From Rhina ancylostomus (lineage: Eukaryota): a stretch of 64,000 bases of DNA. The notes beneath the pieces are model-generated. The model worked only from the letters and a program-made list of their open reading frames with translations, was not told the DNA's origin and searched no databases. Made by a program: the position numbers and the translations under genes. Where the stretch lies: the NCBI GenBank assembly GCA_030265395.1, contig JARFYF010000056.1, positions 28,296,905-28,360,904 of the forward strand, read 5' to 3'. Shown piece by piece: positions 12,481 through 45,994 of this stretch. How positions within the stretch are numbered: the stretch's first letter is position 1; every line of letters starts with the position of its first letter.

Positions 12481-13136
12481 ATCAACCCTCTGATACTTCA
12501 AAAAAAATACTTTTGTTAAACACTATTTTCTTTTTACAAATCTGTGATGGCTTCCATTAATTAGCTCATAATCAATTCAAGTGGCTATTAATTGTGTCCT
12601 GGATTTTTTTTTCCTTAAATACCTCCCTATCAACAAACAAACTTCCCACAGATGCTGCCTGACCTGCTGAGTGTTTCTGGGTTTGATAAGTTTTTTAAAA
12701 TTGTGCTCCAGTTGATTTGCCCCTTCCTTCAACTTTAGAAGTTTTGGATAGATTCCATCGGATGTTTTGACATCTACTTCAAATCCAGCCAGCCTTTTCA
12801 GTGCCATCTCTTCTTTTTAGTCCAACCAGTCACTCAATTACCCTCTTTTACCACTGCAGCAGCATCTCCCTTGCATTAAAAAAGATGCAAGGTACTCGCT
12901 TAGTTCCTCTGCTTCTGTAGAGGAGTCTCCATTTTGTTCCCCAAGCTGTCCTCCTTACTCCCCATTTACTATTTGGATATCTATAGTAGACTTTTGGGAT
13001 TACCTTTTGTTAGCTGCCATCACTTGTCACCTCTTTGCCCTCAATTCCTTATTTCACTACCTTGTCTCGTTTTGTCTTTTCAGCTGGGCACTCACTTGAA
13101 CCGACACTGACCACAGGCCCCCGATGTGCTACTAAC

Positions 13137-13999
13137 CTGGAAGACTTTGTCAAGGAGACAGATTTAGGTTCTGGAACTGCTTTCTCAGTATCGGAGCCAC
13201 GTTCTGCCACATGCAACGCATCGTGCTCCGAAGAAGCCTGGCTTGATTGAGATTGAGGTGCCGAACCTTTTGGGATTTCAGGGCTCCCTTTGCTCCCATT
13301 AAGTGCTGGGACTATCCCTTGGAGGGTCTCTGAAGGCTCAGCAACTTCCTGGACTTCAGAGATGCTGTTGCTGTGTGTCTGAGGTTTCTCTTCCTGTCTT
13401 TCACCGGTTGTTGACCTGTTTGGAAGCGAATCCCTGTCCAATTCGCTGTGCTGCACTTCACTCACATGGTCACATTTCCTCTCTGGTGTCCTTTCATCCT
13501 CTTGGACCTCTGCACCTTGAAGAGATCTTTCACTGCCAGGGAGATCTGCTGGGTCAGGTGGAGGTGCTAACACTTCTTTCTCACCTTCTTCACCCATCCA
13601 TTTCTCCATGTGTCCTTGGTTGTTCCCCAGATCCTCTCCTGCAGGGGGATTCAGTGAAAGAGCAGGAATATTTGGAGCACGAGTCAAAGGTGTCTCTGGC
13701 TGCTCCAACTCGGGTGCTTTTGAATCCTGGGCATCAGCTTGATCTTCTTCGTGCTCGACGGCCACAGGTGGGTAGCTGGATGATAAAGTCACCTCACTTA
13801 ACTGACCTGTTTCTGGTGCTGTGGGACCCTCTTCGTGCACGGCTCCACTCACTCCTTCAGCAGTGTCAGTATCAACCTTAACATTCTGACTCTTGACTGG
13901 AGGAGCTGCCTTCTCTTCAGTCTCGCCCTCAGATTCTTCATCCTCATCGTCACTTCTTGTGTGGGGTTGGTCTTGGCACAAGAGCTGGAGGGTAACTGC
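13137..13999 (-). CDS. FKBP15: FKBP15 large low-complexity acidic exon (AVTLQLLCQDQ...SVSLTKSS)
   Basis: ccccaacag acceptor; the CAG/gttagt donor at phase 2 fits the next exon; overlaps ORF 13049-13981. Confidence 0.88.
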
Positions 14000-15869
14000 C
14001 TGTTGGGGAAGAGGAAGAAAAAAAAAGTCTGTAAAACTAACACCATGGCAATTCGGGTCCCCTCAGGGACCTACAAGATGCTGTCTGATGTGGATCTAAT
14101 CCAGACAAGTTTTNNNNNNNNNNAGTTTTAAAGTACCGACCTCTGCTGAATTAATACATGTAGATGGCTCTAGAGATGAGACTCGATCACAATGATCCTG
14201 GGTTGAATTCCTTGCCAACACACTATCTTGGCTCCTTTAAGAATAACCATGGGTTTGAAGGGGTGAAGGAAATAAAAGGGCCCACAGTTGTCGATATCAG
14301 TCCAATAACCTGTGCATTTCCGGAGGCTGATGAGGACAGCAGAAGGTTTAACTGAATGCCTCAGCCTGTCAGCATTGTCACACCTCCTAGTTAATGGCCT
14401 ATTTTATGGCTCTTTGGGCCAGTCCCAGAACAAGTCATACTTTCCTCTTGGAAGGAGGCATGCTTATTCATTCATTCTAAATATCATGGGTCACTTCACT
14501 TGTGTGGGGATATAACAGATCTCTCTAAAATAATGAAACTGGGTGGGTGTGTAGTAGCACCCTTTCCAATAATCAATGGAAACATCAAGGAACCAAAAAT
14601 ACCAGACTAAATGCCAGATTTGGAACAGAGAGAAGGAGACATTTCTTCAGGGTTAATGGCAGAAGCAAAATTATGTCAAGATTCAAGATTACTGTGGAGG
14701 GGTCAACGAGGAAAAGTATCTAAAGGGATGCAGGAAATGGGGTCTGATCTTTCAGTTCAAGTTCAGGGTAAATACCACCACATATCTGGGTGGAGTCTGT
14801 AGTCTTCATGTTGCAATTTTAAGTTTTTTTTAAATCTTAAAATACAGTTGCTTAAAAGATTCCAGGACTTTCGATCCTCTATAAGCCCCTGAAGTCTATT
14901 ATTGATTTCTATGCTCGAGGATGAATTTCCTAACATGAATCCTGAATATAATATTTATAGTTTGAACCTGCATCATCACATAAATTTAAGACTCTGCCCA
15001 GACAACTGCACAGAAGATTGAGTAACATCGCCGTCAATTATGCAGAGCAGAAGTGACCACAATTGATTTTCTACAAGAAACTAACAGGCAACCACTTCTA
15101 CTGTCTGCATTTTACTGGAGAAATTAGTTTCTTAAATTCAGTTTCTCCCCCTTCTTGCCCACCCCACTGACTGTGACAGTATAGTCAATTCAATGGACTT
15201 CCATTCCTTTAACCACATTACACTTCTGCAACCACCTTCAAGTTTGTAAAGCACATCTCTAATGTCTCTTTGGTAATGTGATGCCTGATATAGGGGTGCC
15301 AACACTGTACTTCAACAATAATTGACAGTTTATTGCTAGGGTCAATTTGTTTTGTCTGAAAAGATTAGAGCAATCCTGTTCCAAAGTATGCTTCAATTAA
15401 TTTGGACTCCATTTCAGATGGAGAATAACTTCCCAGAAGTTGCAAATCCTTGAATTTTTCTACCCCAGGGAGTGGTGGAGCTTGATTCACTGAATACATT
15501 TGAAGCTGGGATGGACAGATTTTTGGACTACAAGTGTAATGGAGAACAGGCAAGAAAGTGGAGCTGAGGCAATGATCAGATCAGCCAGATTCTTACTGAA
15601 TGATGGAGAGGGGGGGAGAAAAAGGCCATTAGGTTACTCCAGCACTGATTTCTTACGTTTTTTTTGTGTCAGTCAACAGAAATTAATAAAGTACCCAAGG
15701 TCTTTGTAATGACAGCTGTGTCTTTCTCGCTCGCTCTCCCTCCGACTTGCACTATTGGCAATGATTTTTAACGGCAGGTTTGCTTTGACTGCTACTCTGC
15801 ATTGCCATGAATCTATTAAAGAATCTGGGGCTCTTTCAGTTTCATTGTTGTCTGTTTCACCAACAAGCT

Positions 15870-16305: not shown

Positions 16306-17004
16306 AAAAAAAACTGACTAATTGGGTTTCTCAGTCTAGATCATAAGGGTAACTTAAAAACTTCATTATCCAGTACTTGCCTCACTGGGTAAAGTTCGAA
16401 TGCAACATCATCAACCTGAAACGTTAACCGTTTCCCTTTGCAGATGCTGCCTGACCCATAAATGCTTCCAATATTTGGAGTTTTTATTTCAGATTTCCAG
16501 TGGCTACATTTTGCTTCCATAAACTGGAATAAACACCATTTTCCACCCTTCAGCCAAATTGTTATCCATTCCCTGGGATTACCCTGAACCGCAGCCGCTT
16601 TGAATTTGGGTAATAGGCCTTGATATAGCATTCCTATCAACCTTTTGGAAATTCGAACATTATACTTCCACTCCTGTCACTTGAGCACTTTGTTTTGCAC
16701 TACAGTTTGCACTCCTGGACTTTGCACCATCCTGTTGCTTTGTGTTTGTCGCTGTATTTAGTGTATGTATTATTATCATGTGTACTGTTTACTCTGAGCT
16801 TCATGCCAACATGCACCCTAGTGTATATGACAATAAAATAATCTAACTAATCTAAATCTAACTACCTAAATGTGCTTACACATGATAATTGGCTCATGAA
16901 CTGAGATAAGGGTGGGGAATCTCCTGTCAATACAGTAAGTTACGGTAGCATTGTCCAGAGGGCTGGACGTTTGATCCAGTGACATCAGTTGAATCACCAG
17001 TATT

Positions 17005-17130
17005 CTGAAGAAGGGTCCTAACCTGAAACATTGACCACCTACTTTTCTCCATGGGTGCTGCCTGGCCTGCTGAGTTCCTCCAGGATCATCATGCTTTTCA
17101 TCTAGATTCCAGCATCTGCAGTCCTTTGTT
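17005..17130 (+). mobile_element. Short Penelope-like terminal fragment with hammerhead-like core
   Basis: CTGAAGA-agggtcctaacct-GAAAC, then tgctgcctggcctgctgagttcctccag; 15-bp flanking direct repeats. Confidence 0.6.
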
Positions 17131-18619
17131 TCACCAGTATTCTGACTCTGTTTTGAATCCCTGAGATGGATGGAGAGGAATACTCCTTCACTGCATCTGT
17201 GTTTATCTTTACTGCCCCTCCCAGATTATGTGACAGCCAGGGCTGATAGGGATGAGCAAGGAAGCATTTACTCCTGACAGAGATGGTTGTCCACCAGTCT
17301 TTTGTGCTCCTCAGTTTTGAATGTATGAGCTCCAATTCGTTGGCCTGGCTCCCATGTATGGAGTCATCACTCATTGTAATCCCACATCTGTAATTGGACA
17401 GATGGGATGGGCCAATCTCAGTGACCTGAAGCATCTTGAACTCTGTTGACGTGGCCTCATCAGTGGCAAGACCTGTGGTGGTGCAGTGAGAAAGCCCTGC
17501 CCTTGAAATGCTCCTGAAAGGTTTGACAGCCAGCAAAGTCCTGCCCCCAACGTTCCCAGCTGTTGAAGCTTCATGTGAAATTGAATGATAGTATTGAGGA
17601 ATTCAGAAAATTGAAAAATTAAAAGCTATTTAAAAAATGAAAGTATTAGCTAAAACACCAAAAACATAATTAAAAACATCAAAGTGAAATAACTTAAAAA
17701 AAAACTTCCCATCTATCCCCTAAGTCTTTGCCCTACAATCCTTTTGAATTTAGTGAGGTTTTGGATCCCAGCAACACTGAGAAGACTGACAAATTTGCCC
17801 TTTTAGAATTGTTGGTAAGTTCGTCACTGGAGGGATACGAACTGACCTCTGGATCAATAGTCCAGTCCTCTACCTACTCATCAAGTAGCTTTACCACCAC
17901 TGTGGTACCAAAACTGTGCACCACATTTTATTGGAATGGACCTTCCTCTTCCTGGAGACACAAGAGATGGCAGATGCTGGATCTGGAGCAACACACAAAG
18001 TGCTGGAGGAACTCAGTGGATCAGGCAACATCTATGGCGATTCGTGCACAGGATCACAAGAGGCTTCAGAGGGTTGTAGACTCAGCCAGCTCCATCACGG
18101 GCACAACAAATTTCACGTCATTTAAGTCAATGCTAATAAACCTGATTCTGAAATGAACCGTTGATGACACGTCCCATCACTACTGATGGTTGACCACAGA
18201 CTCATTGTGGCAGTGGATAGCCACATTGGATTTTTCCTGTTTTTTTTTAAATTGGACAACTTCACGTAGCGATGGGTTCATGTTATTCTTGCAACTAGAG
18301 GAACAGCTCGGGTAGAGGTGCAGCTGCTTCTGGAGTGCAGGTCTTCAGTGTTACAGCTGGGATGTTGTCCAGTTTGGGAAGTACTGTTCAGGGATCTTGG
18401 GCGAGTAACTGCAGTACATTTTGTAGGTGACACCTATTGCAGCCATTATGCACCTATGGTGGAAGGAATAAGTGTTTAAGGTGGTGGATGGGGAGCCCAT
18501 TAAGTGGTCAGCTCTGTCCTGCATGGTGTTGAGCCTCTTGAGGGTTGTTGGAATTGCACTCATCGAGGCAAGTGTAGAGTATTCCAGCATATCCCTCATC
18601 TGTGCCTTGTGGGTGGTCT

Positions 18620-18931
18620 TTCCCACTCTGTCTGCCTCCAGCTATCATTCACCTCCACCGTCTTCCAACTCCACCCACGATCACTTCCCTTATCTGGAAC
18701 TACCTGCTTGTCATCTTACACCCCTCCTTGGTCCCCCAATTGCCTCGAAATCCTTTACCGCCACTCTCCTTCTCTTTATACCGGCTGCCTCTCCTCTCAG
18801 TCCTGATGCAGGGTTTTGACCCTAAACACCAACAATTCCTTTCCTCCCACAGATGCTGCTCGACCCACTAATTTCCTCCAGCAGATTATTTGTTGCTCCA
18901 TATTCCAGTATCTGCAGTCTCTTACATCTCC
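18620..18931 (+). mobile_element. Penelope-like terminal repeat fragment with degenerate hammerhead core
   Basis: Pyrimidine-rich lead-in, cagtc-CTGATGC-agggttttgaccct-AAAC, then cagatgctgctcgaccc; inverted partner at 17954-18035. Confidence 0.55.
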
Positions 18932-19354
18932 GTTGTCCAGTCTCAGCCTTTGCTGTATCCATTCTTTGATTCCCACTGGAACTGAATTGCCTGAAGACCA
19001 GCTTGTGTGATGGTGGGGATCTCGAAGCCAAGGTGGATCATCTTCTTGGCACTTCTGCCTGATTGTGAATGCTTCAGCTTTGTCTTCAGCTCCCCCACGC
19101 TGGGCCCCATAATTGTGAAGAGTGGCTTTGTGCTTGGTTGCTTGGTACCCCCTCCTGCTGTTAGCTGTTGAATCGTCCACCACCATTCACAACTAGATTT
19201 GGTGGGACCACAGACCTTTCTTTGGATCTATTCATTGTAAATCCTTAGCTCCATCTAATGCACGTGTTTTTTTTGCAGTCTAGCCCACTGTGCTGCAACT
19301 GTATCAGGCTGATACCTTCACGAGCATTAGTAGAAGTGACCACAGCAAAATTAG

Positions 19355-25874: not shown

Positions 25875-28140
25875 CTGGATATTGGGGGAAAGTCACCATG
25901 TGAGAACGCAGCAGCACTTCAGATGTACAGCGATACCTATCACTCCTACTCTAACTTTATCACATTAAAATTTACAGACAGAAGCAGGTCATTTGACTCA
26001 ACTGGTTTGTACCATTGTTTGTACTCCAGATGTGCTTCCTTCAATCTATTTACCAAACCCTTCCAGCAAATCCTTTTATTCCTTTATTCCTTATATGCAG
26101 GTCTTTAATCTCGTGTTATTCATAACCCCATGATGTAGATTAATTAAGTCAGGAGTGATTCTGAACTAAAAGAACATTGGGAATGCAAACAAGATAGTAT
26201 GCTTGGAAGGAGACAAACTCAAGTTAGTCTTACAGGTAGGTGACTTGACACAAAGGTGGCTTGTTGATTGTTACCTCACTGATGGGTATTTCCAGCATTC
26301 TTGTTTCATATTACTCGGAAGTTTCAAGTTTCAGTTTGGTTTGTTTCCCCCCCCCCCCCCCACTCCTGTTCTCATTTATCTTCCTCTGTTTACAACCCCC
26401 TTGAGCAGATCAGCTATGATTAAAAAGCAATGACTACTAATAGCATTGTTTTTCCTAGATTCTCTTGCCCTTCAGCCTATCACAGACATCCCATCTGTTC
26501 TCTCCATGTAAGCACTCTCAGCACGTTTTCTCACTTTTCTAGTTCTGGGGATTGATAATCAACCCAAAATGTTAACTCTCTCTCCCCAAAGAAATTGTTG
26601 GGTATTTGTTTTCAATGGGTTCTAATTCTCACTGCCACGATGAAGCATTTTCTGTTGTTATTTTAGATTTTTAACATCTGCTATTTTTTTGCTTTAAAAT
26701 CAATACCTGAATAAATACTCAGTGTACAAGAGCTGGAAAGTGAGATTAGTTCCAGTATTTTCAGCCAATCTGGACACTGGGTAAAACAGCCATCTCCTGT
26801 GCTGTAAATTTCTATGATAATTTTTGCAATCTTGTGAATTAGTTCACTAACTCTGCTAAAATTAACAGTGAGGTGACTAAAATTTACAATTTCAGCAAAG
26901 AATTAAGGAATGGAAAAAGTAAACGAGCATGGCATGCTATTTAAAAAGATTGTAAAAGCTTCCATTAGTATGCAGATAGGAAGTGATTAACAAAAGTAAA
27001 CACTTTTAGCTAGAGACGGCAGAAATTGTAACATTCACAAGGAAACAGTCCAGACATTAAACAAATACTTTGCAACTGTCATCAGGTTAGAAGGCACAAG
27101 ACATCCCAGAAACAGTGGGAAGTCAAGGTTACAAGCAGAAGGAAGATTTTAAAGAAATTAATATTAATGATACTAAAAGTAATCTGTTCCCCTGGGTCTG
27201 ATGACCTACATGAATTCATGAAGGGGGAAGTGGGGGAAGGGGTGAGAAAAATAAGGAATCATGTGGGAAAGTGGAGTTAAAGCAGATTGATTGCATTGAA
27301 TGGTGGAGCACTCTCCTCCTGCTCCCATTTGTTAGATTCTATTAATGGAACCATTGGCAGGAGTAATAAATCAGTTATCATTACAGTGACGTCTATCAGG
27401 GGTTGGTCTTTCTTTTTGCTTTGGACCTAAGGTTTATAAACACCCTGCAGAAACAGGAACAACTTACTGCACACAGGAAGGAGAAATAATGGGAAATACG
27501 AGCACCCTGTAAATGAAGCTGAAGTTGCTCTGGATAAAGATGTACAGTCAAGGGGGTTTTGCATATTTGATAATCAACTTATCCAATCACTAAAGAGCAG
27601 AGCTAATAAAATGTTGCATTGAGAAATTTGGAACAGTAGAGGACATCAGAAGAATTAAAAAATCAGAATGATTTCTAAGATGCAACAGATAGGCGATGCC
27701 AAGGTCATTTTTGAACCCCCGCTTGTGNNNNNNNNNNNNNNNNNNNNNNNNNNNNNNNNNNNNNNNNNNNNNNACTAGGATCATCATACAAACGCAATGT
27801 ATAATCATACCGAGACACATTCTAGATTCATCATACAAATAATCTTACATCTATCAGTAAAATTGATAAAGTTTGATTGCTATAGAAATTTTGGGCATGT
27901 TCACACAATGGCAAATTAAAGACTGCAGAAATCCCGGCTTCAGTTTACTGTACTCCTGAAGCATCCTTGGCCTCTCCAGGAAGTTAAAAACCACAATGCC
28001 TGACATAGACTAGCCTCATCAACAGACCATGGCCGCACTAGATAACTCAGTGAGTAGATTACTGCCAAGTGTTATGCTGAGTCTACTAGTTAGGACTGGA
28101 TTTGCTGATCTCACAGCTAGTGCAACTGAGGTTGTGCTAT

Positions 28141-28337
28141 GGATCAAACCACAAAGCACTGGAGGAACTCAGCAGGTCAGGCAGCATCTATGGAGAGAAA
28201 TGGACAGTTGACGTTTCAGGACATGACCCTTCACCAGGACACTATGCTATGGATGCAGGGTTTCAAGCCAAAACAATTACTTTCTCCCACAGATGCTGCT
28301 CGACCCGCTGAGTACCCCCCAGCAGATTGTTGTTGAA
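28141..28337. mobile_element. Palindromic hammerhead-bearing (Penelope-like) insertion
   Basis: Two inverted arms; gttgtgctat duplicated on both flanks. Confidence 0.65.
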
Positions 28338-28859
28338 GTTGTGCTATAATTGACTTCAAAGCTCTGGGTTAGGGGAAAAGTGAGCACAGTGGAGCAACAG
28401 TTAATGCTACTGCCCTCCCAGCTCCAGGGACCCAGATTTAATCCTGATCTTGGGTGCTATCCTTGTGGAATTCTCCCACTGTCAAGTACATTGTACAGCC
28501 TGATGCTCCATCTGGTGCACTGAGGATAGGATGCACTTGAGATGTCAATCTGAGGCATCATCTGTATTCTCAAGTGAACACAGCCAGATTCCACGGTACA
28601 ACTAGTACATTAATAATATAATAAAACTTATTAAAACATTTTAACAATGGCACTTGCTGCAAAAATCAGCTAACTTAGCACTGACTAGAAGCAATGAACA
28701 AAATTTGATACCAACAAACATTAGGAGATATGAGAGATGACAGCAACTTGGTCAAAGTAGTATGTACAAAATATGTACCCTAAATATGTACAAAACTAGA
28801 GAGGGACATGGCTATGGAGAGATTCGGAAAGAAGGACAGTAAATTAATAGAAACCTCAC

Positions 28860-29012: not shown

Positions 29013-30012
29013 CTGGAGGAAAAAGGAAGAAATACGTCTCAACCAACTCCTGTTCACATCCCAATAAGGATCATCTAATATGACATGCTGGAATAAAATT
29101 CTTCAAAGAAAACAGATGTGCACAGATGCCCCATAGCATCCACATTCTGATAAGAAGGCATACAAGATGAAGCTATTTCCAATTTGTCCATTTTAATATA
29201 CACTAAGAGAAAAAGATCCCCCAATCAGACAGCTGACATCTTCTGATCCCTACCCAATTCTTAGTAAAACTTCTAACTCTACATCCAGGCCACCTACTAC
29301 CTCCTACATAAGCAGCACCTCTACCTCAACTTGTTTGCTCCTGAAACCCTCATACAAGCTTATTTGCTGCTAGTTCCAACTGCTCCAATGCTCTTCCAGC
29401 CCCTCTCTCACTTAGTACCAGACAGACTTAGTACTTACCTAAAACAATGTTGGCCTGTATTCTCACTCTCAGAAAATCACCATTCACCACCACTTTTGTG
29501 GTTACTTGCTAACTTCTGATACAACAAAGTCTCTCCTTCCCGTTTCTGATCAACAGTCCATTGTCCTGTGTGTCACTTCTCTGGAACTTCCTGTTCCGAA
29601 ACCCTCCTACGATCTTCCAACTCCAACCTTGTTCTTATGTCTTTGCAAGCTACCACGCCAGAGAATTTGGGAAGCAAATACATCTCCTTCCTCTGAAATC
29701 TCTTAGAGGTTGCTAGTGATCTGTCTCATAATAGGCTTGTGTGAGGTTCAAGATTATTTGGTAGTTATAAAAACAATGATATAATTTCTGGGGTTTACCT
29801 GAAGTGGTTGCAATTTAAAAGTAATAATTGCAGTGTGCTTAGATCCTGATGAAACAGAGAACTTAAGACTCTATACTGCCCTCTGTAAATTAACACAAGA
29901 CATGTCTGTAATTCAGAGTTGTTCAAATAGCTGCCCACTTCATTCATCCACCTCTGCAAAGATCAGGAGCAGTTCCAAGTAAGGCTCTACGCTGTAGTGC
30001 CAACTTCTTTAC

Positions 30013-30168
30013 CTGCTCTGCCGCAGCCTGATCAGTTGATGACCGGGTTTTCCTCAGCAATGATCGTACATTTTCCAGCTCCTCCTCGTACGATTTCCGG
30101 ATTTCGTCCACCTCTTCCTCTGCTCGCTGCCGCTCTGTTATCGCTTTCCTCTTCCTCTCTGCTAAATT
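30013..30168 (-). CDS. FKBP15: FKBP15 exon (NLAERKRKAITERQRAEEEVDEIRKSYEEELENVRSLLRKTRSSTDQAAAEQ)
   Basis: 156 nt, GT-AG, conserved STDQAAAEQ. Confidence 0.95.
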
Positions 30169-30292
30169 CTGACCACAGAAGACTCAATGACCACAAGATC
30201 TTCCAACAGCAGCCGTGATTATTTCTGTCCATCTAACCTCACCCTTCCAGACCTTCTCCTCCGCCCTCCACAACACGCCCCACCCCCCCCCC

Positions 30293-30294
<2 letters not shown>

Positions 30295-30332
<38 letters not shown>
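30295..30332. repeat. (CA)n microsatellite
   Basis: Direct reading. Confidence 0.95.
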
Positions 30333-30334
<2 letters not shown>

Positions 30335-30384
30335 TAATTACCTCCTGGTATTGAAATTCTTGCAAAAACAAGGTTTAAAGGGAG

Positions 30385-30545
30385 AAAATATTCAGGCAGG
30401 TATCTGTGGAGGGAGAAACTAAGGATATTTCAGGTCAATTACCTTTTATCAGAAAGATCACCGAGCTGGAAAGTTAAATCTGCTTCACCCTCCACAGATA
30501 CTGTCTGACCTACTGAGTATTTCCAGCATTGCTTGTCTTTATTCC
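30385..30545. mobile_element. Palindromic Penelope-like terminal fragment
   Basis: 14-bp perfect inverted repeat gtatctgtggaggg/ccctccacagatac; hammerhead-like core on minus. Confidence 0.55.
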
Positions 30546-31043
30546 TTAATCATGATCATTTGTCTTTACCAGCTTTGGAAAGTTAAACCAAATATTTAGA
30601 GCATACAGATAGTTCATGCAGCTTTTGACTCTTCTCCGTACCCCTCCACAAATAAGTCAATTTTGACCAAGATTTTTCAACAAATTTCAACTACTGAACT
30701 TCAATAATGCAAATCTCTGACAGCAAGGTGCTTCAGCATTCCCAGAGGTTGTTAAAGGCACAAAAAAAACAAAGCCTTTTTCAATATCATTCCTTCAGGT
30801 GAGAACAGTATGGAAATAGGAAGCAGTTCATCCTTGGTCCCCTTTTGACAGAGGAGTCCCATATTTTCAAGTTGAGTCAGACAGAGTGAAGGATCACTGG
30901 GAATGTCTAGGTAGAAAACTGCACATCACAAACTTACAGGACATCAGCAAGCTGCAAAGTCACAATAGCACGGAATTTCACAAAGGAAGCCCTCTGGATT
31001 AGTAACAGCTACAGCCCACCAAGTTCTACACTTCCAACCACAC

Positions 31044-31180
31044 CTTTTCCAGATTATCCTTCTCAGCTCGAAGGTCCACAAGCTCTTCTTCCATGCTGGC
31101 AACCTTCACTTCCAACTGCTTACGGCTTTGTTTCTCAGCTTTGCACTTGGTCTGAGCCCGCTCCGATGCCTCCTGCAGCT
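31044..31180 (-). CDS. FKBP15: FKBP15 exon (ELQEASERAQTKCKAEKQSRKQLEVKVASMEEELVDLRAEKDNLEK)
   Basis: 137 nt, phase 1-0. Confidence 0.94.
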
Positions 31181-31849
31181 CTGAGGTAGACAAGCAGTGG
31201 AACAAATCAGCTATCTTGCATCTACCAAACCAGACAGAGCAGAGACAGCCAGATACAAGTTCCTCATGGACTCGCACCAATCTCTGCCTGCATTACCGTA
31301 CCACACCTCTGAAATGCACCACAAGCAAACCTATAAGAAATACAATCACAAGGTTGGTTGGACACAGCTCAGAATTCCTAACCATGACTTTGATGAAATG
31401 GCAAAGTGATAACTTGTTTCAACACTGGTGCAGCGACCTGTCGTACCAGGATACTACAAAAGGTAAAGCAATGACTTGAACATGGTTGTTTTTGGCCATA
31501 GTTTCCCACAAAGCCTCCTCCAAAACTTAGCAATGTTAATCAAAGAAAAAGTAAGAAAGCAAATGACTGATGCTTCTTAAATATGAGGAAATCAAAATAA
31601 AGACACAATATCTGCCTGAGTTTTCCCAGGCACTGGTCATAGGACATTCTGTAAAAATGCTATTATGTTGCACAACCTCATTCTACCGTATGGGATTGTG
31701 CCAGCTTTTTTCAAAGAGCTATTGCCCATTAATCCTGATTCCCTGCTCCTTCCACAGTCATGAAAATCTCTTCTTTGAATACATCTCCAATTAACTTCTA
31801 AAAGTTACTATTGAATCTGGTCTTTTTCAGCAATCTTTCAGGATTGGGG

Positions 31850-32420
31850 ATAGCTGATGAGGTCCATGTGAGAACTGCAAACACTTCCACAAATGGGACA
31901 GATGGGTAGTTTGTGAGATAGCACTGTCCTTCTGCTGCTTACACTGGGCTTGCTGCACGTATAAAGTTCTCAATACCACCCAAAATCCTCCTCCTCCACT
32001 CTGAGCAATCAGGGACCACGATTTCCCAGGGGTCAGTGAAGATATTGCATTTCCTTCAGTTTTCCTGGTAATCTCCCCTCGTGAGAGAGCTCAGAATAAA
32101 GTGGCTGTTTTGGGAGGTTTGTATTGGGAATGTTAGCAGAGTCCATTGCGTGTAACCAGGCCTCAGTGCTGGGGACATTGGCCCGAGAGAAGATGCTGAC
32201 AATGGTTCACTTATCCTTCTAGAGTTTCGAGGATTTCATGGAGACAGCATCAGTGGCATACACTGTCCAGGTCTCAGAAACATATAGAACAGGAGGGATC
32301 ACCACTGCCCAGGTTTGAGGTTTTGTTCCTGAAACACCCTTTCCTCAACCAGCTATGATGGTGCACCAAAGGTGGTGGTGAATTTCATCATCGATATCAT
32401 CTGCTTTTATTACCCTTTCA
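31850..32420 (-). mobile_element. RTE-like LINE remnant
   Basis: Reverse strand resembles an RTE ORF C-terminus (..ANVPSTEA.., PKTATLF*ALSRG). Confidence 0.45.
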
Positions 32421-32684
32421 TTCCATACTGTAACAACTTGCGAAGTAAATAAAAGCTAATCTGTCTGGTTCTTTTGCCACTTAAATCTATATCCTCTTGT
32501 CACCTATTGCCCCAATCAAAACATTCCACATCTATTCAATAAAAATCCTTAATTTTTGAACACCTCTATTAACTTCACTGCTATGACAAAAATCTAACTC
32601 TGACCTCCCTACATAATTCTGTTCAACTATTCTGAGCCCCCATTCTGTAAACTTCCGCATTTTTTCGTATGGTATGCTGGCCCA

Positions 32685-33748
32685 TAAGGTTAGGCATATA
32701 GGATCCGAGGAGGGCTGGCTCACTGGATCCAAAATCAGCTTGGTGAAAGGAGGCAGATGTAGAGGTGGTTTTCCCAAATTGGACGTCTGTCACTTGTGGT
32801 GTACCACAGGGATCAGTGCTTGGACCTTTATATATTAGTGACTTGCATGTCAATGTAGGAGGCATGATTAACAGGTTTGCAGCATGAAAATTGACAGTGT
32901 TATGAATAGCAAGGAAAGTTAGTCAAGGCTGAAGCAGGATATAAATCAGATGGAAAGTTGGATTGAGCATTGGCAGATGGAATTTAATCCTGACAGGTGC
33001 GCAGAGATGCATTTTGGGAAGTCAAATAGGGGTAGAACACACATAATAAATGGTAGAGCACTAAGGAACATGGTGATCAAGAGTCCCAGTCCATAGTTCC
33101 CCAACAGTGGCAATACAGGTTAGTAGGATCGTGAAGCATGTACATGGCATGGTTGTCTTTACAGATAAAGAATACAAGAGTTGAGAAAACATGAGTTAAA
33201 ATACTCCTTGAAGTACTGTGTGCAGTTTTTGTGAGCACACTCCAAGGAGGACGTGATTGTACTGGGGAAAGTGCAGAGAAGACTCACCAGGACGTTGCCT
33301 GCATCAGAGGATTTCAGTTATGGGAAGGAGATCGGACAGGCTGGACTTGTTTTCCCTGAAGCAAAGGCGGCTGAGGGGTAACTTGATACAAGGATATCAG
33401 ATGATAGGTAAAGATAGGGTAGACAGTCAAAATCTTTCTCCCCTATAGCAGTAATATCAAAATTAAGAGGTCATAGATTTAAGGTGAAAGGAAGGAGTTT
33501 TAAAGGGGATCAGCAAAGTTAATTTTGTTTTACAGAGAGTGGATGATATCTGGAACGTGCTGCCAGACATAGTGGTGGAAGCAAGTACAATCACTATGTG
33601 TAAGAGACATTGAGATATGCAGTTATGGCATAGGGAGATATGGTCCAAATGCAGGCAAATGAGATTAGAGTAGATGGGCAAGAAGATCAGCGTGGACATG
33701 GTGGACTGAATGGCCCAGTTCTATGCTATATATCTCTATGACTCCATC
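32685..33748 (+). mobile_element. CR1 LINE 3' fragment (RT domain to tail), decayed
   Basis: GVPQGSVLGP (ggtgtaccacagggatcagtgcttggacct), WQMEFNPD.C..MHFG, LFSL..RRLRG.LI motifs; ctatgactcc tail. Confidence 0.9.
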
Positions 33749-33955
33749 ATGACGAATAGGCTTAGAGAGGAACCTAATCAGTGAATTAACCCAACTTGTT
33801 TCTAGACTGTTTATTTTGTTTAAACAAATGCCAGGATTCCTCATGTTTTCTCAAATAGCATCTTTTGCACCACCTTCAAATGTATACACACAGCTCCAAG
33901 TCTCTCTTCCCTCTTACTGCATTCATAATTCAAAGCACTGAGCCTCCCTGAATAC

Positions 33956-34127
33956 CTGTTAACTGGACTTCCACGCTGTTGAGCCGCAGCCCTTGCTCCT
34001 CTGCCTTCTGCTGTGCTGAGGCAAGCTGACTGCGCAGCTCCATCTCCTTCTTCTGATGGGCTGTGAGCTCCAGCTGCAGTCTGGCAACCTGGCTAGTGGC
34101 CACTGCTAGTTCCTCAGTCACTTTCAC
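33956..34127 (-). CDS. FKBP15: FKBP15 exon (VKVTEELAVATSQVARLQLELTAHQKKEMELRSQL...VEVQLT)
   Basis: 172 nt, phase 0-1. Confidence 0.95.
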
Positions 34128-37100
34128 CTGCATCACAAAAAAGGAAAAAAACAAGACTTACTTCACCTCAATAGCTTTTTAAGAAGAGAATTTTATATTT
34201 CCATTACCTTTTAAGAGATAGAGTGCTTGATGACCCTTTGGTCCAACTTTAAGGTAATATACCAGGTTCTGGACTCCCATACCAGTTAGAATAGTTTCCA
34301 TCCACCCTATAAAATCTTTATACTAAGAAATTCAGCTAGTTCACCACTTTATCCCCTAGAATGCAGAACTAAATGCCAATCTAACCTGTGCATATAATTT
34401 AATCCTTTAGTCCCACAAATCGNNNNNNNNNNNNNNNNNNNNNNNNNNNNNNNNNNNNNNNNNNNNNNNNNNNNNNNNNNNNNNNNNNNNNNNNNNNNNN
34501 NNNNNNNNNNNNNNNNNNNNNNNNNNNNNNNNNNNNNNNNNNNNNNNNNNNNNNNNNNNNNNNNNNNNNNNNNNNNNNNNNNNNNNNNNNNNNNNNNNNN
34601 NNNNNNNNNNNNNNNNNNNNNNNNNNNNNNNNNNNNNNNNNNNNNNNNNNNNNNNNNNNNNNNNNNNNNNNNNNNNNNNNNNNNNNNNNNNNNNNNNNNN
34701 NNNNNNNNNNNNNNNNNNNNTAAAACCATGAGGAATTCTGTTAATCTGTCAACCCCCTTTGGCACTGTTCTTTTACCACCTGCGATACCCAATGTGCCAA
34801 CTAAAATGGTTGCACAAATCAGTGCAATTTCAGAATCAAAGTAATTTTGGAAGATGACTGGAGCATGTACAATTCCTCACTTATTTTTAATAGACTGGGG
34901 TGGGAAACTATTGGTCTTGGAGATAAGTGAATCTTTAGACTTATTATTGTTTCCATTACTATTTTAATTTTAGACAGCAAGTACCTACCATTTTAGGCAA
35001 GAAAATCTTCAGTTTCAGTTTTCTCTGATTTACTCTCAAAGTATTTACGTAAACCTTTAACGTTACCCCTGATATCACCCACATACATTGTTTCTATGGA
35101 TCTTATTAATCTTCTTAGTGTTCTGGATCTAGTCGTCCTCTTTCCTGATAACAGGATCTCTACTGTTCTAGCAAGCACAAAATGTTTTCTTTTAGTTGTT
35201 TATCATTTCTCATTTCCTCTTCAAGGGTCATAATTACACACTTAGACCTCTTATCATCTGGGCTATTTTTAGATCTTGTGTTCTACCATTTGTTTCAACA
35301 TCACCCAATGTTCTATCTGCTGTTTTTCCTGGTTAACAGTTCTACAGTGTTTAACTTCTTTCTAACAACTCCAAATTTTGGCTTACTTAAACTTAAAACC
35401 GTAGTTTTTGACTCCCCCTTCACCAACACAACCGACTACTTCAGGCTTAAAACTCGTAACTAAACCTAATGTGATTTGTTCTCTCCTATTGTGCCAGAAA
35501 TCTCCGTGAAGAGAATTAAAATTACCCATGTATTTGAGCCTCAAATTATTTTGCTTTTCCCAATCTGAGATAATTCATGATTCCCACTTTTGTTCACTTG
35601 CTTTTGCAAAAAACTTCTCCAAACCCCACTGCTTTATTACTGACACTGGGATGTTTGGAGACAACTCCTAAACCCCCACATAGTTTCCGACTTCTCATTT
35701 CCATGCAGTGTTTCCACTGTCTGCTCACCCTATGAATGCCCTTCCACGCTATTGCAGTATCCTCTATCGATGCTGGTAAACCCACTTTCCCAATTTCACT
35801 TTTTTTTAAAAAAAGACAATAATTACCTCCCCATCATGCCCAACTTTAGGTAACTCTCAATGGCAGCCAATACATCATACACTGTAAATATCAAACTTAC
35901 TTCTTTCAAGTAAGCATTTTCATAAACATTTTCCATAATTTTTCTGTGGCTTTGATATTATTCCCATTTCCTGAGTCCAAAATACTTAAATGACCCTAAC
36001 CCTACAAGCATAACAATGACTCCCTTCTCAACTCTTTATCTGTAGATTATTTTCAAAGGTTTGGCTCATAGCAAAAGACCAGTTCCTCACACTGAAGCCA
36101 AAATGCCTTGAAATAGCACACCTCTGTACCACACCACTCCTTCCACTACATTTCTATCTACTCCTTCTCACTTTGGCAACCAACCGCTCAGCAATGCTTA
36201 AGTCAGTGACAGTTATCTTTCCCCCATTTTTCTCATTATCCTGCCTTGTACCAATTCCACATGTTTTGCATCCTGCAATCCCCCCCCCCCCCAAACACAG
36301 CTCAGCATTGCACACACCATTGGAATAAACAGACAGCCCTGTCTTTTAACATGTCTAGACTTGTACTGCCCACAAAGACTTCCATGTACAAAATGCCACT
36401 GAAGTGCTGAACCTTTTGAAATACACAAGAACCCTGTACTAACCATAGCAATCCATCAATATCTATGTACATCACAATGCATTAATCCACACTGTCCTTG
36501 AATTCACAGCTCAATGACCCAGCACAACACTGAGTGGCTCTGTGCCAACCCACACATAGCTCTCTACTATAAACTAGACTCAACAGCATAGATTAATAGA
36601 TTATAACCCTAGAACAGAATGCAGGTAGAATATGATTTATCCAACATAGAGCAATGCTATTCTGCAGGTACTTGCATATATTGACAGAACTACACCAGAT
36701 TATAAAATCTTTGATGTGACCAATGATGTACAGTGCCGCCAACAGGAGGGAGATATAGGAAGAGAATTAGAAGGGATAAAGAACTGACTGAATAGAATCG
36801 ATATTTAAGGAATATCATTACCCCAGAATCTCCTCAACTGAGAATCCAAAATTAGACTAAAATATTGCAGGTGTGAGAGTGGGCACAAAATTGTGGTCTA
36901 TAGCTAAAATAACTCCCAATAAAAAACTTGGAATAAAAGAAGGGAACTTTGCCATTTGTCTTGTTCATAACAATGCTTTTTCAACTATTAAATGTTATAT
37001 CTGGGATACCATTTTCCCAGCATCATGCTGTGTTTTAAACACACAAGCTGCAACTCAAACCTGTTGGTAGAATCCTCATGTTACACACGTGACAAGTACT

Positions 37101-38346
37101 TCATGCAGAGCAGTAAACCCCACATCTGATCTGAACATAAAAAGCACACTACAAGTTTGCACTCACTTAGTGATCTTAACACAGCAATATAAAAATCACT
37201 TTAATTTGGGTCAAGTGTACTGTAATGTTGTACACTTTCTGAACTTAATTTATGCTTAAGGTGTATATAATTCAATGTACTTCAGTAGTAATGGTGGGCA
37301 GCAGGGAAAAGCAAGGGAGAAAGGAAAGACAGGGAGAGTAATCTGCTTGAGCTATGTCCTCTGTCCATGATTCCCCATTCTGGTGACTGTGTAGAACACC
37401 ACTGTAGTTTGGAAGTGTAAAATATTAAGAAAAAGGTAAGTATTCTGGATTGTTACTGGCTAAGGCAACAGAACAATCGGAAACACTGGGCGACTCCATG
37501 AAAAACCACAGTATTTCAAATTGTTTGGCATCCTAATCATGGACTTAAATATCAGACATTCCTCCTCCTCCTCACCCCTTCCCCAGTAGATATACTGTAT
37601 ACGAATCACATTTTCTATTTTAAAAAAAACCTGTTACTAACAAAGAACGAGTCAACTCGAGGGTATCCTTACATAGTGTTTGCTGGCAGAACAAATGGTA
37701 GAGGAGACAATCATCTCCTCAGCCATAAAAGATCAAATATCCTGTTGAGGCAGGACACCAATCCACAAGTTCCTCAAACATGCACACATAGCAAACTTCA
37801 AATCTCACACTGAGTCAAGGAAAATTGACATGGGTGTTAAAAGAAAAATCAGATACCGCACAGTACTTCATGAAACCCTCCATTAAACAGATTAAGAGTG
37901 TCAACGAGTTCTTGAAACTACAATGACCATACTGGACATCCCAAGCCATTTAGACTAGAATCCCCTTTTCTCTTCTGCTTGAAGTTTTAATATAACCTGT
38001 GACATTCACTGGCAAGACCAACAGTGCTAGCATTAGTCACACTGGTGGGTGAGTGTCGACATCTGTAGGTTGGGAACATTTCCCTTTATCCTCTGGGTTT
38101 GAGGGACATGCAAGATCCAAGGCGGAGGTTTAAGGGAGGATTAGCAAAGAGCCAAAAAGAAACAATAATTTGCAAATGGCAAACTAAGGTGCAGATGGAT
38201 TTTGCTGCTCTCATTAGGTGGAAACGCCAAGGAGGTTACATGATTCCAGCCAAGTAATGCTTAAATCAAAATGTCAACCTAAGCAGAAAGGGCAGAAAAT
38301 TAAACCAAGCGCACACACACTAAAAAGACAGTATGGGCACCCTCAC

Positions 38347-38379
38347 CTGTGCTCTTGCCAACTCCACTGGCAGTGCAAA
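38347..38379 (-). CDS. Candidate FKBP15 alternative microexon (FALPVELARAQ)
   Basis: tttactttctcttcccag acceptor, CAG/gtgagg donor, 33 nt, stop-free in a phase-0 intron. Confidence 0.55.
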
Positions 38380-38430
38380 CTGGGAAGAGAAAGTAAACTG
38401 ACAGTCAAGTGCAACACGTACTAAACAAAG

Positions 38431-38458
<28 letters not shown>
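38431..38458. repeat. (CA)14 microsatellite, read as (UG)14 in FKBP15 pre-mRNA
   Basis: Direct reading. Confidence 0.95.
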
Positions 38459-38461
<3 letters not shown>

Positions 38462-39609
38462 CTGAGCAAGAACACATACACAGTTGCAACAGTCACTAAT
38501 ATTTGTGTCTCCTCAAATGTCATTTGCAACTTTGAAATAAGGAAACATAATTCACACAATTTTATGATCCCACCATACACAACAGAAATTCATACTCCCT
38601 CCACTTACGCACTTGCTGCACCTCAACAAATACTAGGATCTTTGAATCCCATGAACAGTTAGACCCGATATGAAATGTTATACTTTTTCTAAATGGGTAT
38701 ATCTTTCATCCGTAGTCTACAGTGCATAAACAACATTCTTGCTGAATAAGCAATCAATTACAAGAAAGTTGGTCCCAGATGAAGAAAGCTCACTGCCACT
38801 GGGCCGAGCAGCCCAGGTTACAATAGAAGGAAAAGGTGCCACTTACTCACTAGTATTATCCAGAAAAGCTTGCATGTGAATCACCTTCAAAATCCAAAGC
38901 CTTTCCACCAAAAAGGCATAACCAAGGAGTGTGAGGGATGCGTCCACTTATCTGGACAGCACCACCCAAGACAAAGGAGCACACCCGATTAGCATCTCAT
39001 TCACCATCGTACGGTGCTGCATGGCTGCACATGTACGCCATCCATAAAATGCACTGCAGGTTTTCACCCAGGCTACTTTAACCACACCTCCCAAACCTAC
39101 AACCTCTGTCCCCCCTGAAAGGATCAGGGCAGCTGTCCAGGTAAACAAACCTATCTGCAAGATCCCCATCAGTTCACACGTATACTAAGTAGGAAAAATA
39201 TTAGCATCCCATCATTATCTAAATCCTGGAACTGCCTCCCCAACAATGAGGATGGATTCATCAGAGGAACTGCAGTGGTACAAGACACTGGTTCTCCAAC
39301 ACTTTCTCAGGAGTAATTAGGCGAAGGAAATATATGAAGACTTTGCCTAATGTTCAGTGACACAAACAGGTTTGAAATTGCTCTCAGCACAAGTAGAATA
39401 ACCATAAGGTGTAGCTTAGCAAAAGAGTGTAATGTTTTAAATGTACAAGCTTACATGCAAGTGTTTCTGATTGGTCTTACTGTTTTGAAGTTGCTAATTA
39501 TACAAAAGATCATTAAAGCAACCACAATCTGATAACATGTTGCAAGGCATGGTGTCGAGTCCAAAAGTGATGCTAAATACAAAGGTGGCACTGAAGCAGG
39601 GATACATAC

Positions 39610-39621
39610 AGAAGCTTCACA
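39610..39621 (-). CDS. Candidate FKBP15 12-nt microexon (CEAS)
   Basis: tttacttcctgacttacacag acceptor, gtatgt donor, in frame. Confidence 0.35.
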
Positions 39622-41514
39622 CTGTGTAAGTCAGGAAGTAAATCGAGATGGTGGTTACGCAATGTTGGGCTTGAAACAACAAATGACTTAATTGATGTCC
39701 TCTTCCTAGTTAAGTCTTAGATACAGGGTAGTTCAGTCTTTATAAGAACCAAAAAGGGAAAGGAATAATTCAGTTAGAGAAAGGAAAGAATATAATAAAA
39801 TTCAAGATCTATTGTTAAGAATGGGTTAAACAAATCAGAAGATTGTTAGCTACTGTAAAATATTAAAGGAGAAAGGCATATAAAAATACGGACTCAGAGA
39901 GGACACAACTGAGAGTAGGAGGGAGTAGGGAGAGCGAGAGAAAGGCTGCACATGAACAGGAGGAAGAGAACTCACAGTCGACAGAGTCTACAGTATGAGG
40001 AATGGATACCACACCACAATCACTTGGGAGGATGACTACCAAGGTTTCAAGGAACAGACTGTGACTGCCACTTTTGTTAAGTATTAAACACAAAAAACCA
40101 CTGGAGGAACATGATGCCACTTGATCCACTGACTTCCTTCAGCAGTTTGTATTTTACTCCAGAACCAGCATTTGCAGTCTCGCTTGCGTCTCCATTTTAA
40201 GTATTACTTTCGTACTGCATGTAAATTACTTAATAAATCTGCGGCACTTATAACCAATATATCTGTGCCCACAGTGGTTTATTGTTGTCACAAGCAAATT
40301 GCTCAAGTCAAATTACACTGAATCTTGAATGCAGCAAATAAGTAGAACAAGCAGAATTTTACGTAGCCTGCACTTGTTTTATTGATTTATCATAGAAAAA
40401 TTGTCACATTAAGTTTTATCCATACAGAAATTGATGTATTTACCTAAATAGTAATAGTTCTTGTAAATTCTGTTTATTGTAAATTCTGAGCTCAAATGCA
40501 ATATTCAGACTGTATATTTGGGGTTAAATGCAGATGTAAGGTCACTCTGCTCCATCTAAACATTGTTACCCAAGCTGTATTCTATGATTATTAACACGTT
40601 TTCATTCACTGTCATTCTCTGCTGCTTCTTACATACACTATTATATAGTTCTTACTGGAGGATGATTTTGTGCTGCGAGCCAGGCTCACAACCAAATCAG
40701 AATAATCCTGTCTTAACTTGGAGGTACTTCAGTTACAATTCCATGTACCAATATACTCCAATATCCCTTTCAAATCAAACTTCAAAACTATTTTCTACAG
40801 AAAAAAATTTGCCAAAAGCAGAGTGAACAGGAACTTAGTTGATACATTTAGCAATAAAACAAAAAAAGGAACAACCAAGTTGTGGCAAGGAAAAGACCTT
40901 GCATGAAGCAGCAACTGAGAAACAGCACTGCCCTATGTAAATATGGGATCCACATGTTCTGATGTGACACAACACTTTGATTTTTTTTAAACCTGGTGTG
41001 GACCCAGATCTCTTTTACAATATAGAAACTTGCAAACATTGGATCACAGAAATAGTTATTTCTACCCATTTTTTAAACTGTATTTTTTTTAAAAGACATA
41101 CATCCACACACTTTAAAGGGATTCACTGACAGATGCAGTGAACAATATCTACATTGAAAGCCTGAACTATCCCGATGTATCTAAAAAAAACTAGGAAACA
41201 TAGATTAAAATGTACTGCTGCAGAGATTATCCACCCCCCCCCCACCCCAGAGGTGGAGCAAATTTCCCCATTAGAACCAAGCTCAGTTTGCTGCAAGGCC
41301 TGGGCTGGTCTTAGCAATTCTGCACACATTTCTTCCTCCTTGAATGCCAAATCTGATTATTCCAATACACCCAAATTGATTGCATTGCTTCTCCCAAATT
41401 GGACTTCAAGTATTCCCTTCAGGCTCTGTCCCAATCCTCATTCCTCACAAGAATCTGCCTCAGTTTCACCACAACATTAACACACTTGTACGGATGCAAG
41501 AAAGCCAACCTCAC

Positions 41515-41617
41515 CTTCTCCTGCTCCGCAAGCAGGATACGGGCTTGGTTATTCTCTGTTGAGGATATCAGAGAGTCGTTCCTCTGTTCCATCAGCAAAT
41601 TACTCTGCTCCACATAT
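41515..41617 (-). CDS. FKBP15: FKBP15 exon (YVEQSNLLMEQRNDSLISSTENNQARILLAEQEK)
   Basis: 103 nt, phase 2-0. Confidence 0.95.
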
Positions 41618-42513: not shown

Positions 42514-42608
42514 CTTTGGTTTCTCTGGATCAGATCACTGATCTTTCCATTCTGTTCTTCAATCCGACTGCTTTTATCAAACACTTCTTGCTTCAATCTC
42601 TCGTTTTC
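42514..42608 (-). CDS. FKBP15: FKBP15 exon (ENERLKQEVFDKSSRIEEQNGKISDLIQRNQ)
   Basis: 95 nt, phase 0-2. Confidence 0.95.
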
Positions 42609-44225: not shown

Positions 44226-44289
44226 AATATGTGCACTAAACAACATTCAATATAAAGAGCTAAGCAATTCCATGGCCATCAAATCAGAT

Positions 44290-45960: not shown

Positions 45961-45994
45961 ATAGGAGTATTAAATAGACAGCGATTGCACTTAC

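What the first reader, a model, noticed from the sequence alone, without database searches (positions are those of the whole stretch)
28127..28347. Palindromic mini-element with two inverted hammerhead-like arms and a triplicated target site
Seen: the left arm on minus (28240 to 28210) reads GTC-CTGGTGA-agggtcatgtcct-GAAACGTC, then ...agatgctgcctgacctgctgagttcctccag. The right arm on plus from 28251 reads ggatgcagggtttcaagccaaaac...cagatgctgctcgacccgctgag. gttgtgctat flanks both ends (28131-28140, 28338-28347), and tgctatggat occurs at the left junction (28135-28144) and in the centre (28245-28254). Known: GAAACGUC with no stem-III loop is the minimal type-I hammerhead of Penelope-like elements, thought to cleave as dimers. 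Inference: a non-autonomous, retrozyme-like family that inserts as inverted units, or re-targets its own insertion site. Every copy here has substitutions in core or stems and is probably inactive.
Basis: partly seen in the sequence, partly recalled or inferred. Interest (0 to 1): 0.75.

Follow-up and report, generated by a model that had tools for sequence, protein, structure and literature searches.

The report
Two stacked Penelope retroelement stumps
The apparent palindrome is two old, broken tail-end fragments of a very common Penelope-like jumping gene, from two different subfamilies, lying head to head at one insertion site in an intron; this layout is mostly known, and only the third copy of the target sequence in the middle is unusual.

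Summary
The sequence features are real. The unit is not one palindromic element. The two arms are short 3' stumps of a very high-copy repeat that carries a minimal hammerhead; 33,070 to 69,038 contigs per run were laid on the stretch, nearly all of the depth on the arms. The arms come from different subfamilies: 11 sites group each arm with a distant copy and 0 group the arms together. The outer duplication (13 of 14 bp) and the inner one (10 of 10 bp; 12 bp with the base seen in two related organisms) both exceed chance. The simplest reading is two insertions 4-6 bp apart, each with its own 12-14 bp target duplication. The rival is one event primed on both strands from two different RNAs. Both hammerheads are broken and lie on opposite strands, so they cannot form a dimer within one RNA. 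Head-to-head pseudo-LTRs with target duplications, tails and insertion next to earlier copies are all published for Penelope-like elements. No autonomous partner could be sought beyond the window. The unit is shared by four organisms with flanks 3-7% apart, so it is old.

The parts
28127..28140 (+). Outer target duplication, left copy (12-14 bp; TSD1)
   Evidence: 13 of 14 bp identical to 28334-28347; 2 of 1392 random units score as high
28133..28144 (+). Inner target duplication, left copy (TSD2): 8 nt of TSD1 plus GGAT; TGGA also matches the element's own end (priming microhomology, inferred)
   Evidence: 11 of 12 bp identical to 28243-28254; alignment to the copy at 17984-18040
28140..28240 (-). 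Left arm: 3' stump of the repeat, subfamily A, short (tail-less) end; 5' end at hammerhead stem I
   Evidence: 82% (47 of 57) to copy 17951-18040, 78% (62 of 79) to copy 17004-17131; profile hit (a seed of that profile)
28207..28240 (-). Decayed minimal type-I hammerhead: A6 is G, U-U mismatch in stem II, C-A mismatch in stem I
   Evidence: Sequence, alignment; does not fold better than shuffles, 170 of 200 fold as well
28241..28254 (+). Centre: 2-nt filler AC, then the inner duplication's right copy (28243-28254), which overlaps the first bases of the right arm
   Evidence: base 28244 reads G in one contig each of runs X2 and X3, which lengthens the match to the window's left junction to 12 of 12
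28252..28335 (+). Right arm: 3' stump, subfamily B, 5'-truncated inside the hammerhead core, cleavage triplet deleted, short (tail-less) end
   Evidence: 88% (73 of 83) to copy 18800-18932 against 79% (42 of 53) to the left arm; four-copy site count
28334..28347 (+). Outer target duplication, right copy (TSD1); first TG overlaps the arm's end
16994..17145 (+). Comparison copy: single arm with tail and a perfect 15-bp target duplication
   Evidence: 0 of 1392 random units score 15
18610..18932 (+). Comparison copy of subfamily B with tail; seems to run about 190 nt upstream of the hammerhead (5' boundary judged by eye)
30364..30548 (.). Second head-to-head unit: arms joined at the hammerhead core, no filler, no duplication found
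   Evidence: arms 82%, 41 of 50

Best explanation
Two dead, 5'-truncated 3' ends (pseudo-LTR stumps) of a Penelope-like retrotransposon family, inserted one after the other at almost the same site by target-primed reverse transcription. First, a subfamily-B RNA was copied in on the + strand (28252-28335) with a 12-14 bp duplication (28127-28140 / 28334-28347). Later, a subfamily-A RNA was copied in on the - strand (28145-28240) at nicks shifted 4-6 bp, duplicating 12 bp that span the old target and the first bases of the first insert (28133-28144 / 28243-28254). The 8-mer common to both duplications therefore occurs three times. Shown: the repeats, the two subfamilies, the high copy number, presence of both arms in related organisms. 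Inferred: Penelope-like origin (about 0.9 on its own), the order of events and that they were separate. The hammerheads have no present role.
For: Arms are not sisters: 11 sites group right+18800 against left+17006, 6 group right+17006 against left+18800, 0 group right+left; three-way count 17 against 4, P 0.007. Each arm has its own duplication of a length like the 15 bp of the solo copy at 17006. Runs X2 and X3 read G at 28244, extending the inner repeat to 12 bp. One model explains both oddities (subfamily mismatch, central target copy). Chance adjacency is about 1% per window like this, not negligible in a scan that picks oddities. A review states that these elements tend to insert into or next to earlier copies (PMC6765202, passage), and the Anolis enzyme cuts its own ORF-pLTR junction in vitro (PMC11167929, main text). 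Family marks: hammerhead motif at the 5' side (loose-end consensus), two 3' end classes about 33-38 nt apart.
Against: No one-armed or empty ortholog was seen: flank contigs run into the left arm in 4 of 4 runs and into the right arm in 3 of 4 (only 15 of 151 joints and 32 pieces were shown). Head-to-head units also arise far above chance in this family (P about 4e-5), so a single event has a high prior. Part of the inner repeat (TGGA left, GAT centre) is element sequence, so fewer than 12 bases are independent. In runs X3 and X10 base 28133 is G, so the inner repeat is 11 of 12 in X3. The G at 28244 rests on one contig per run. The subfamily test uses four copies. No RT or GIY-YIG frame was found in 300 of 307 frames scanned, so the link to an autonomous element is untested. 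Covariation among 9 window copies was not above shuffles (34 of 500 reach the score).
Confidence: 0.55

Rival explanations
1. One concerted event with two templates. A staggered cut was primed on both strands, each by a different subfamily's RNA. The first cDNA began to copy the opposite overhang (leaving the central target copy), the top strand was then diverted to prime on the second RNA, and the two cDNA ends were joined.
For: The Anolis Penelope-like protein cleaves and extends both strands and is predicted to be a dimer (PMC11167929). Head-to-head units are enriched in the window, and 12 of the 15 joints shown link a left-arm piece to a right-arm piece in contigs from other loci (sides mostly under 30 nt, so weak). 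Both arms occur together in the related organisms. Both arms lack the tail and start at the hammerhead edge.
Against: Needs two subfamilies active in one cell and a templated filler as separate extras. The other head-to-head unit in the window has similar arms and no filler. The sequence outcome is the same as for two insertions, so nothing here demands it.
Confidence: 0.3
2. An ordinary single-template inverted insertion (fold-back or twin priming on one RNA) whose arms later diverged, or one of which was converted by another copy; the central target copy is repair filler.
For: Inverted pseudo-LTR units with 8-10 bp duplications are the usual layout (PMC3846280, passages; PMC8557442, passages). 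One outer duplication encloses both arms.
Against: 0 informative sites group the two arms against 11 that split them by subfamily; the differences run along the whole arm, so conversion would have to replace it entirely.
Confidence: 0.08
3. One reading: a non-autonomous, retrozyme-like mini-element that transposes as a two-armed palindromic unit.
For: A 195-bp unit enclosed by one duplication; strong hairpin on either strand (z -4.0 and -7.3); animal retrozymes are proposed to derive from pseudo-LTRs (bioRxiv 10.64898/2026.07.22.740005).
Against: No second copy with this arm pair and centre in the window; the joints shown from other loci differ in position and filler; 7 of 11 arms are single with varied 5' ends; retrozymes are direct tandems.
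Confidence: 0.05

Closest known systems
Insertions of endonuclease-bearing Penelope-like elements (Penelope/Poseidon, Neptune): inverted 5'-truncated pseudo-LTR, optional 30-40 nt tail, short TSD (Arkhipova et al. 2013, PMC3846280; Craig et al. 2021, PMC8557442; Schostak et al. 2008, PMC2377424; passages read)
   Same: Head-to-head arrangement, 5' truncation, target duplication around the unit, two 3' end classes about 33-38 nt apart, solo copies with their own duplication.
   Different: No ORF between the arms; the arms are from different subfamilies; a third copy of the target sits in the centre; duplications are 12-15 bp against 8-10 bp in the rotifer examples.
Minimal type-I hammerheads of metazoan Penelope-like elements (Cervera and de la Pena 2014, PMC4209133; results and discussion read)
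   Same: Short stem I, one extra base between position 9 and stem II, G-C pair at 10.1-11.1, no helix III with a palindromic 15.2-16.2; mostly single dispersed motifs, some pairs on opposite strands 100-700 bp apart.
   Different: Stem II is 4 bp here (7-8 bp in the schistosome motif); the two motifs are about 11 nt apart; both are broken; subfamily B has C at position 9 and much of the read consensus has A at position 4.
Poseidon of Anolis carolinensis in vitro (Frangieh et al. 2024, PMC11167929; main text read)
   Same: Cleavage and extension of both strands offers a route to head-to-head units; two start sites give the tail; hammerhead cleavage is not needed for insertion, and these arms keep sequence on both sides of the cut site.
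   Different: That enzyme prefers AT-rich ATT sites and primes without homology; here short microhomologies are seen at the junctions, and no protein is in hand.
Animal non-LTR retrozymes (Cervera and de la Pena 2020, PMC7229834, passages; Li, Clavereau and Pollet 2026, bioRxiv 10.64898/2026.07.22.740005, abstract to discussion read)
   Same: Short, non-coding, hammerhead-bearing, related to pseudo-LTRs, reported also in one cartilaginous fish.
   Different: Retrozymes are direct tandem repeats with a hammerhead in each unit; this is an inverted pair of unequal, variably truncated stumps.

Membership tests
EN+ Penelope-like element (fragment) | Linked ORF with telomerase-like RT and GIY-YIG endonuclease | not testable with these tools
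   No genome held; no RT or GIY-YIG Pfam hit in 300 of 307 window frames of 60 aa or more; no family member in viral, metagenome or prokaryote collections
EN+ Penelope-like element (fragment) | Minimal type-I hammerhead in the terminal repeat | tested here: met
   At family level: intact CTGAAGA..GAAAC spacing at 17005-17029 (alone not above chance, 0.62 expected); majority consensus of 9 copies; loose-end consensus of hundreds of contigs gives stem II GGGT/ACCC and core C(T/A)GATGA (agreement 0.5-0.6, read by eye)
EN+ Penelope-like element (fragment) | 5' truncation with inverted, head-to-head partner | tested here: met
   2 head-to-head units among 11 arms, P about 4e-5
EN+ Penelope-like element (fragment) | Optional 30-40 nt tail | tested here: met
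   Short ends at 28140 and 28335; ends about 33-38 nt longer at 17131, 17951, 18932, 40195 (alignment)
EN+ Penelope-like element (fragment) | Short target-site duplication | tested here: met
   15 of 15 bp at 17006, 13 of 14 around the pair, 10 of 10 around the left arm; only a 6-bp repeat between the centre and the right end; nothing scoring 6 or more at the other 9 of 13 units
Active minimal hammerhead (these two arms) | Intact CUGANGA, GAAAC, NUH and stems I and II | tested here: not met
   Left: A6 is G, mismatches in both stems. Right: core truncated, G12 is A, triplet deleted
Active minimal hammerhead (family consensus) | Covariation in stems I and II | tested here: inconclusive
   64% of cells paired against 15-48% for slid controls, but no measure above shuffles (34 to 405 of 500 reach it); only 9 decayed copies
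Active minimal hammerhead (family consensus) | Self-cleavage as monomer or dimer | not testable with these tools
   Needs an in vitro assay
Non-LTR retrozyme | Direct tandem units, each with a complete hammerhead | tested here: not met
   Arms are inverted and incomplete; 2 of 15 joints shown are tandem-like and come from other loci
Non-LTR retrozyme | Unit of fixed length, expressed as circular RNA | tested here: inconclusive
   5' ends vary among window copies; expression could not be examined
MITE or palindromic DNA transposon | Near-identical terminal inverted repeats, unit copied whole | tested here: not met
   Arms agree at 47 of 84 columns and come from different subfamilies; single arms carry their own duplication

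The most novel reading that the evidence does not exclude
The locus is a fossil of a two-template insertion: one Penelope-like enzyme complex primed reverse transcription on both strands of one cut using RNAs of two different subfamilies, and left a third copy of the target at the joint. If such mixed-arm units with a central target copy are common in these genomes, they would be in vivo evidence that inverted Penelope units are built by dual-strand priming on separate RNAs and not by self-priming on one template, a point the papers read here leave open.
Probability: 0.25. Interest if true: 0.55.

Novelty: new member of a known kind. Interest (0 to 1): 0.22.

Why it matters
On the best reading it matters little: one old nested pair in a family with tens of thousands of copies. 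Its use is as a test case. How Penelope-like elements make their inverted and tandem insertions is described as unresolved (PMC8557442, passages). Pairs whose arms can be told apart by subfamily, and whose centres carry target sequence, let one count two-template events against one-template events and measure re-cutting at earlier insertion sites.

Tried and rejected
Rfam scan of the whole window to E 1: 2 weak unrelated matches, no hammerhead family; the library has not been shown here to cover minimal variants. Whole genome not held, so genome-wide counts, a subfamily tree and the partner search are open. Pattern scans: 0 loci in viral contigs, 0 in prokaryote genomes, 43 loci in metagenomes, none a family member: BLAST gave only 21-24 nt matches in 22 of 43, and 13 of the 14 read by eye were the 3' end of another LINE-like repeat with no hammerhead. 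Pfam on 300 of 307 frames (the last 7, 62175-63998, not sent): only SAM_1, FKBP15 and weak chance hits. A recalled GIY-YIG C-terminal word pattern found nothing in six frames. Folding of four single hammerhead regions and the two whole arms: none better than shuffles. Covariation test not significant. TGTGCTAT alone is not enriched in the window (5 matches, 2.5 expected). No RNA holder listed. No empty or one-armed ortholog among the pieces shown. Lunse et al. 2016 was not held and is known here only through a review passage. Nine paper searches listed no paper on this repeat in sharks or rays or on mixed-subfamily inverted units; repeat databases (Repbase, Dfam), subscription journals and all supplements were not seen and may hold the family. 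Rejected: pure chance; fold-back of one template; cis dimer (opposite strands).

Full report
Setting. The finding lies in a vertebrate-type window. Pfam FKBP15 hits fall on five minus-strand frames between 29947 and 46150, and a long minus-strand frame at 13052-14062 is probably a later exon of the same gene, so the unit most likely sits in an FKBP15 intron (inferred). The repeats resemble those of sharks and rays; that label is recalled and was not tested. No whole genome is held.

Observation. All quoted strings are at the stated coordinates. The outer repeat is 13 of 14 bp (28127-28140 / 28334-28347) and the inner repeat 10 of 10 bp (28135-28144 / 28245-28254). Among 1392 random pseudo-units, 2 scored as high as the outer and 7 as high as the inner. 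The 11-nt centre shares a 7-mer with the left junction, matched by 64 of 20631 random 11-mers. The triplication is real. The palindrome is loose: 33 nt at 82%. It still folds as a long hairpin on both strands (z -4.0; z -7.3), as any inverted pair of related repeats would.

The arms belong to a very large family. A 21-nt arm motif occurs 7 times in the window against 0.01 expected. A profile built from ten window copies gave 13 hits to E 1, 11 below E 0.001 (ten of them its own seeds), and none in the reversed window. Laying four public runs of four organisms at 80% likeness placed 34,360 of 9.7 million, 33,070 of 10.8 million, 47,912 of 23.9 million and 69,038 of 26.8 million contigs on the 1121-bp stretch, with depth concentrated on the arms and far higher on the left arm than the right. 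Loose ends from hundreds of contigs read, on the element strand, stem I, C(T/A)GATGA, one extra A, a 4-bp stem II with a tetraloop, then GAAAC and the triplet (agreement 0.5-0.6, read by eye). This matches the minimal hammerhead that Cervera and de la Pena describe for Penelope-like elements (PMC4209133). Covariation among nine window copies was not above shuffles, so the fold rests on motif identity, not on covariation. Copies end at two places about 33-38 nt apart, like the optional tail, and the solo copy at 17006-17131 has a perfect 15-bp duplication. No RT or endonuclease frame was found in 300 of 307 frames; membership rests on these non-coding marks.

The two arms are not one template. 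The right arm is 88% (73 of 83) like a copy 9.4 kb away and 79% (42 of 53) like the left arm over their shared core. In a three-way count 17 sites join the right arm to that copy and 4 join it to the left arm (P 0.007); with four copies, 11 sites split the arms by subfamily, 6 give the other crossed grouping and 0 join the arms. This argues against fold-back of a single RNA. The sample is small.

Orthologs. Flank contigs 2.8-6.5% different from the window (run X1 matches it exactly) run into the left arm in 4 of 4 runs and into the right arm in 3 of 4, so the unit predates the split of these organisms; no empty or one-armed site appeared among the rows shown (15 of 151 joints, 32 pieces). One contig each in X2 and X3 reads G at 28244, which makes the centre identical to the window's 28133-28144 over 12 bp and puts TGTGCTAT at all three places. 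Against this, X3 and X10 read G at 28133, so the match is 11 of 12 in X3. The X2 contig across the centre has six gap letters and the X3 contig stops fitting at 28275, which suggests that the right arm lost its cleavage triplet recently (position inferred).

Mechanism. Best reading (0.55): the right arm inserted first with the outer 12-14 bp duplication; the left arm inserted later on the other strand, 4-6 bp along, duplicating 12 bp across the first insert's 5' junction. TG at the right end and TGGA at the left end match the element and may have helped priming (inferred). This one model explains both the subfamily mismatch and the central copy, with duplication lengths like the solo copy's. 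Chance adjacency alone gives about 1% per window, and preference for earlier copies is reported (PMC6765202 passage; PMC11167929). Rival (0.3): one event in which both strands of a staggered cut primed different RNAs, as the two-strand activity of the Anolis enzyme would allow, with a templated central filler. The locus cannot separate these two. Head-to-head units are enriched in general (2 among 11 arms, P about 4e-5; 12 of 15 joints shown link left-arm to right-arm pieces at varied points, weak because most sides are under 30 nt), and the second unit at 30364-30548 has similar arms and no filler, the ordinary form.

Ribozyme. The left motif has G at position 6 and mismatches in both stems; the right lacks C3-U4, G12 and the triplet. 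That A6 and G12 are needed for cleavage is established knowledge, recalled. The two lie on opposite strands, so one transcript holds only one in sense. Both arms keep sequence upstream of the cut site, consistent with the report that uncleaved RNA is the main substrate.

Comparison and novelty. Inverted pseudo-LTR units with 8-10 bp duplications, head-to-head as the most frequent form, are in PMC3846280; the inverted 5'-truncated partner and tail are in PMC8557442; solo copies with duplications are in PMC2377424; opposite-strand hammerhead pairs are in PMC4209133. Retrozymes are direct tandems, which this is not. Earlier notes of this scan report the same class of palindromic stumps and hammerhead-edge 5' ends in other genomes; they are unchecked and add no independent support. 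Nine paper searches listed nothing on mixed-subfamily pairs with a central target copy; repeat databases and supplements were not seen.

Verdict. Real, old and mostly explained: new member of a known kind, interest 0.22. The most novel open reading, two-template dual-strand insertion, has probability 0.25 and would deserve 0.55.

Noticed in passing
window 30364-30548: Second head-to-head unit of the same family; arms 82% alike over 50 nt, joined at the hammerhead core with no filler; no target duplication found.
   Followed up: partly
window 16994-17145: Single arm with tail and a perfect 15-bp target duplication whose last four bases coincide with the start of the hammerhead core (5' microhomology).
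   Followed up: partly
window 17006, 28240, 28252, 30448, 30453: Five of 11 arms begin at or just inside the 5' edge of the hammerhead (profile positions 2-6; a sixth hit at 18804 starts there too but that copy seems to run further upstream), upstream of the cut site.
   Followed up: no
loose ends at 28208-28220: Much of the family consensus has A at core position 4 (CAGATGA) and subfamily B has C at position 9; whether these variants ever cleaved is unknown.
   Followed up: no
window 28260-28280: The right arm's missing cleavage triplet looks like a recent deletion of about 6 nt: a contig of run X2 has six gap letters across the centre and one of X3 stops fitting at 28275.
   Followed up: partly
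window 28380-28480: A second common repeat (hundreds to thousands in summed depth) starts about 35 bp right of the unit; it resembles a V-SINE/HE1 head (recalled label).
   Followed up: no
window 29947-46150 (minus), 59617-59940 (minus), 1385-1789 (plus): FKBP15 exons (Pfam PF23649, five frames), a frame that looks like an FKBP-domain exon by eye (no Pfam hit), and a SAM-domain exon on the other strand.
   Followed up: partly
L001, L003, L005, L006, L008, L014, L027, L029, L031, L032, L035, L038, L041: An unrelated LINE-like repeat in 13 metagenome contigs carries the same degenerate 21-mer near its 3' end, with no hammerhead or other likeness; probably coincidence.
   Followed up: partly
window 17951-18040: A minus-strand arm with tail is cut off before its hammerhead by a fragment of another repeat (LINE-like by eye).
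   Followed up: no
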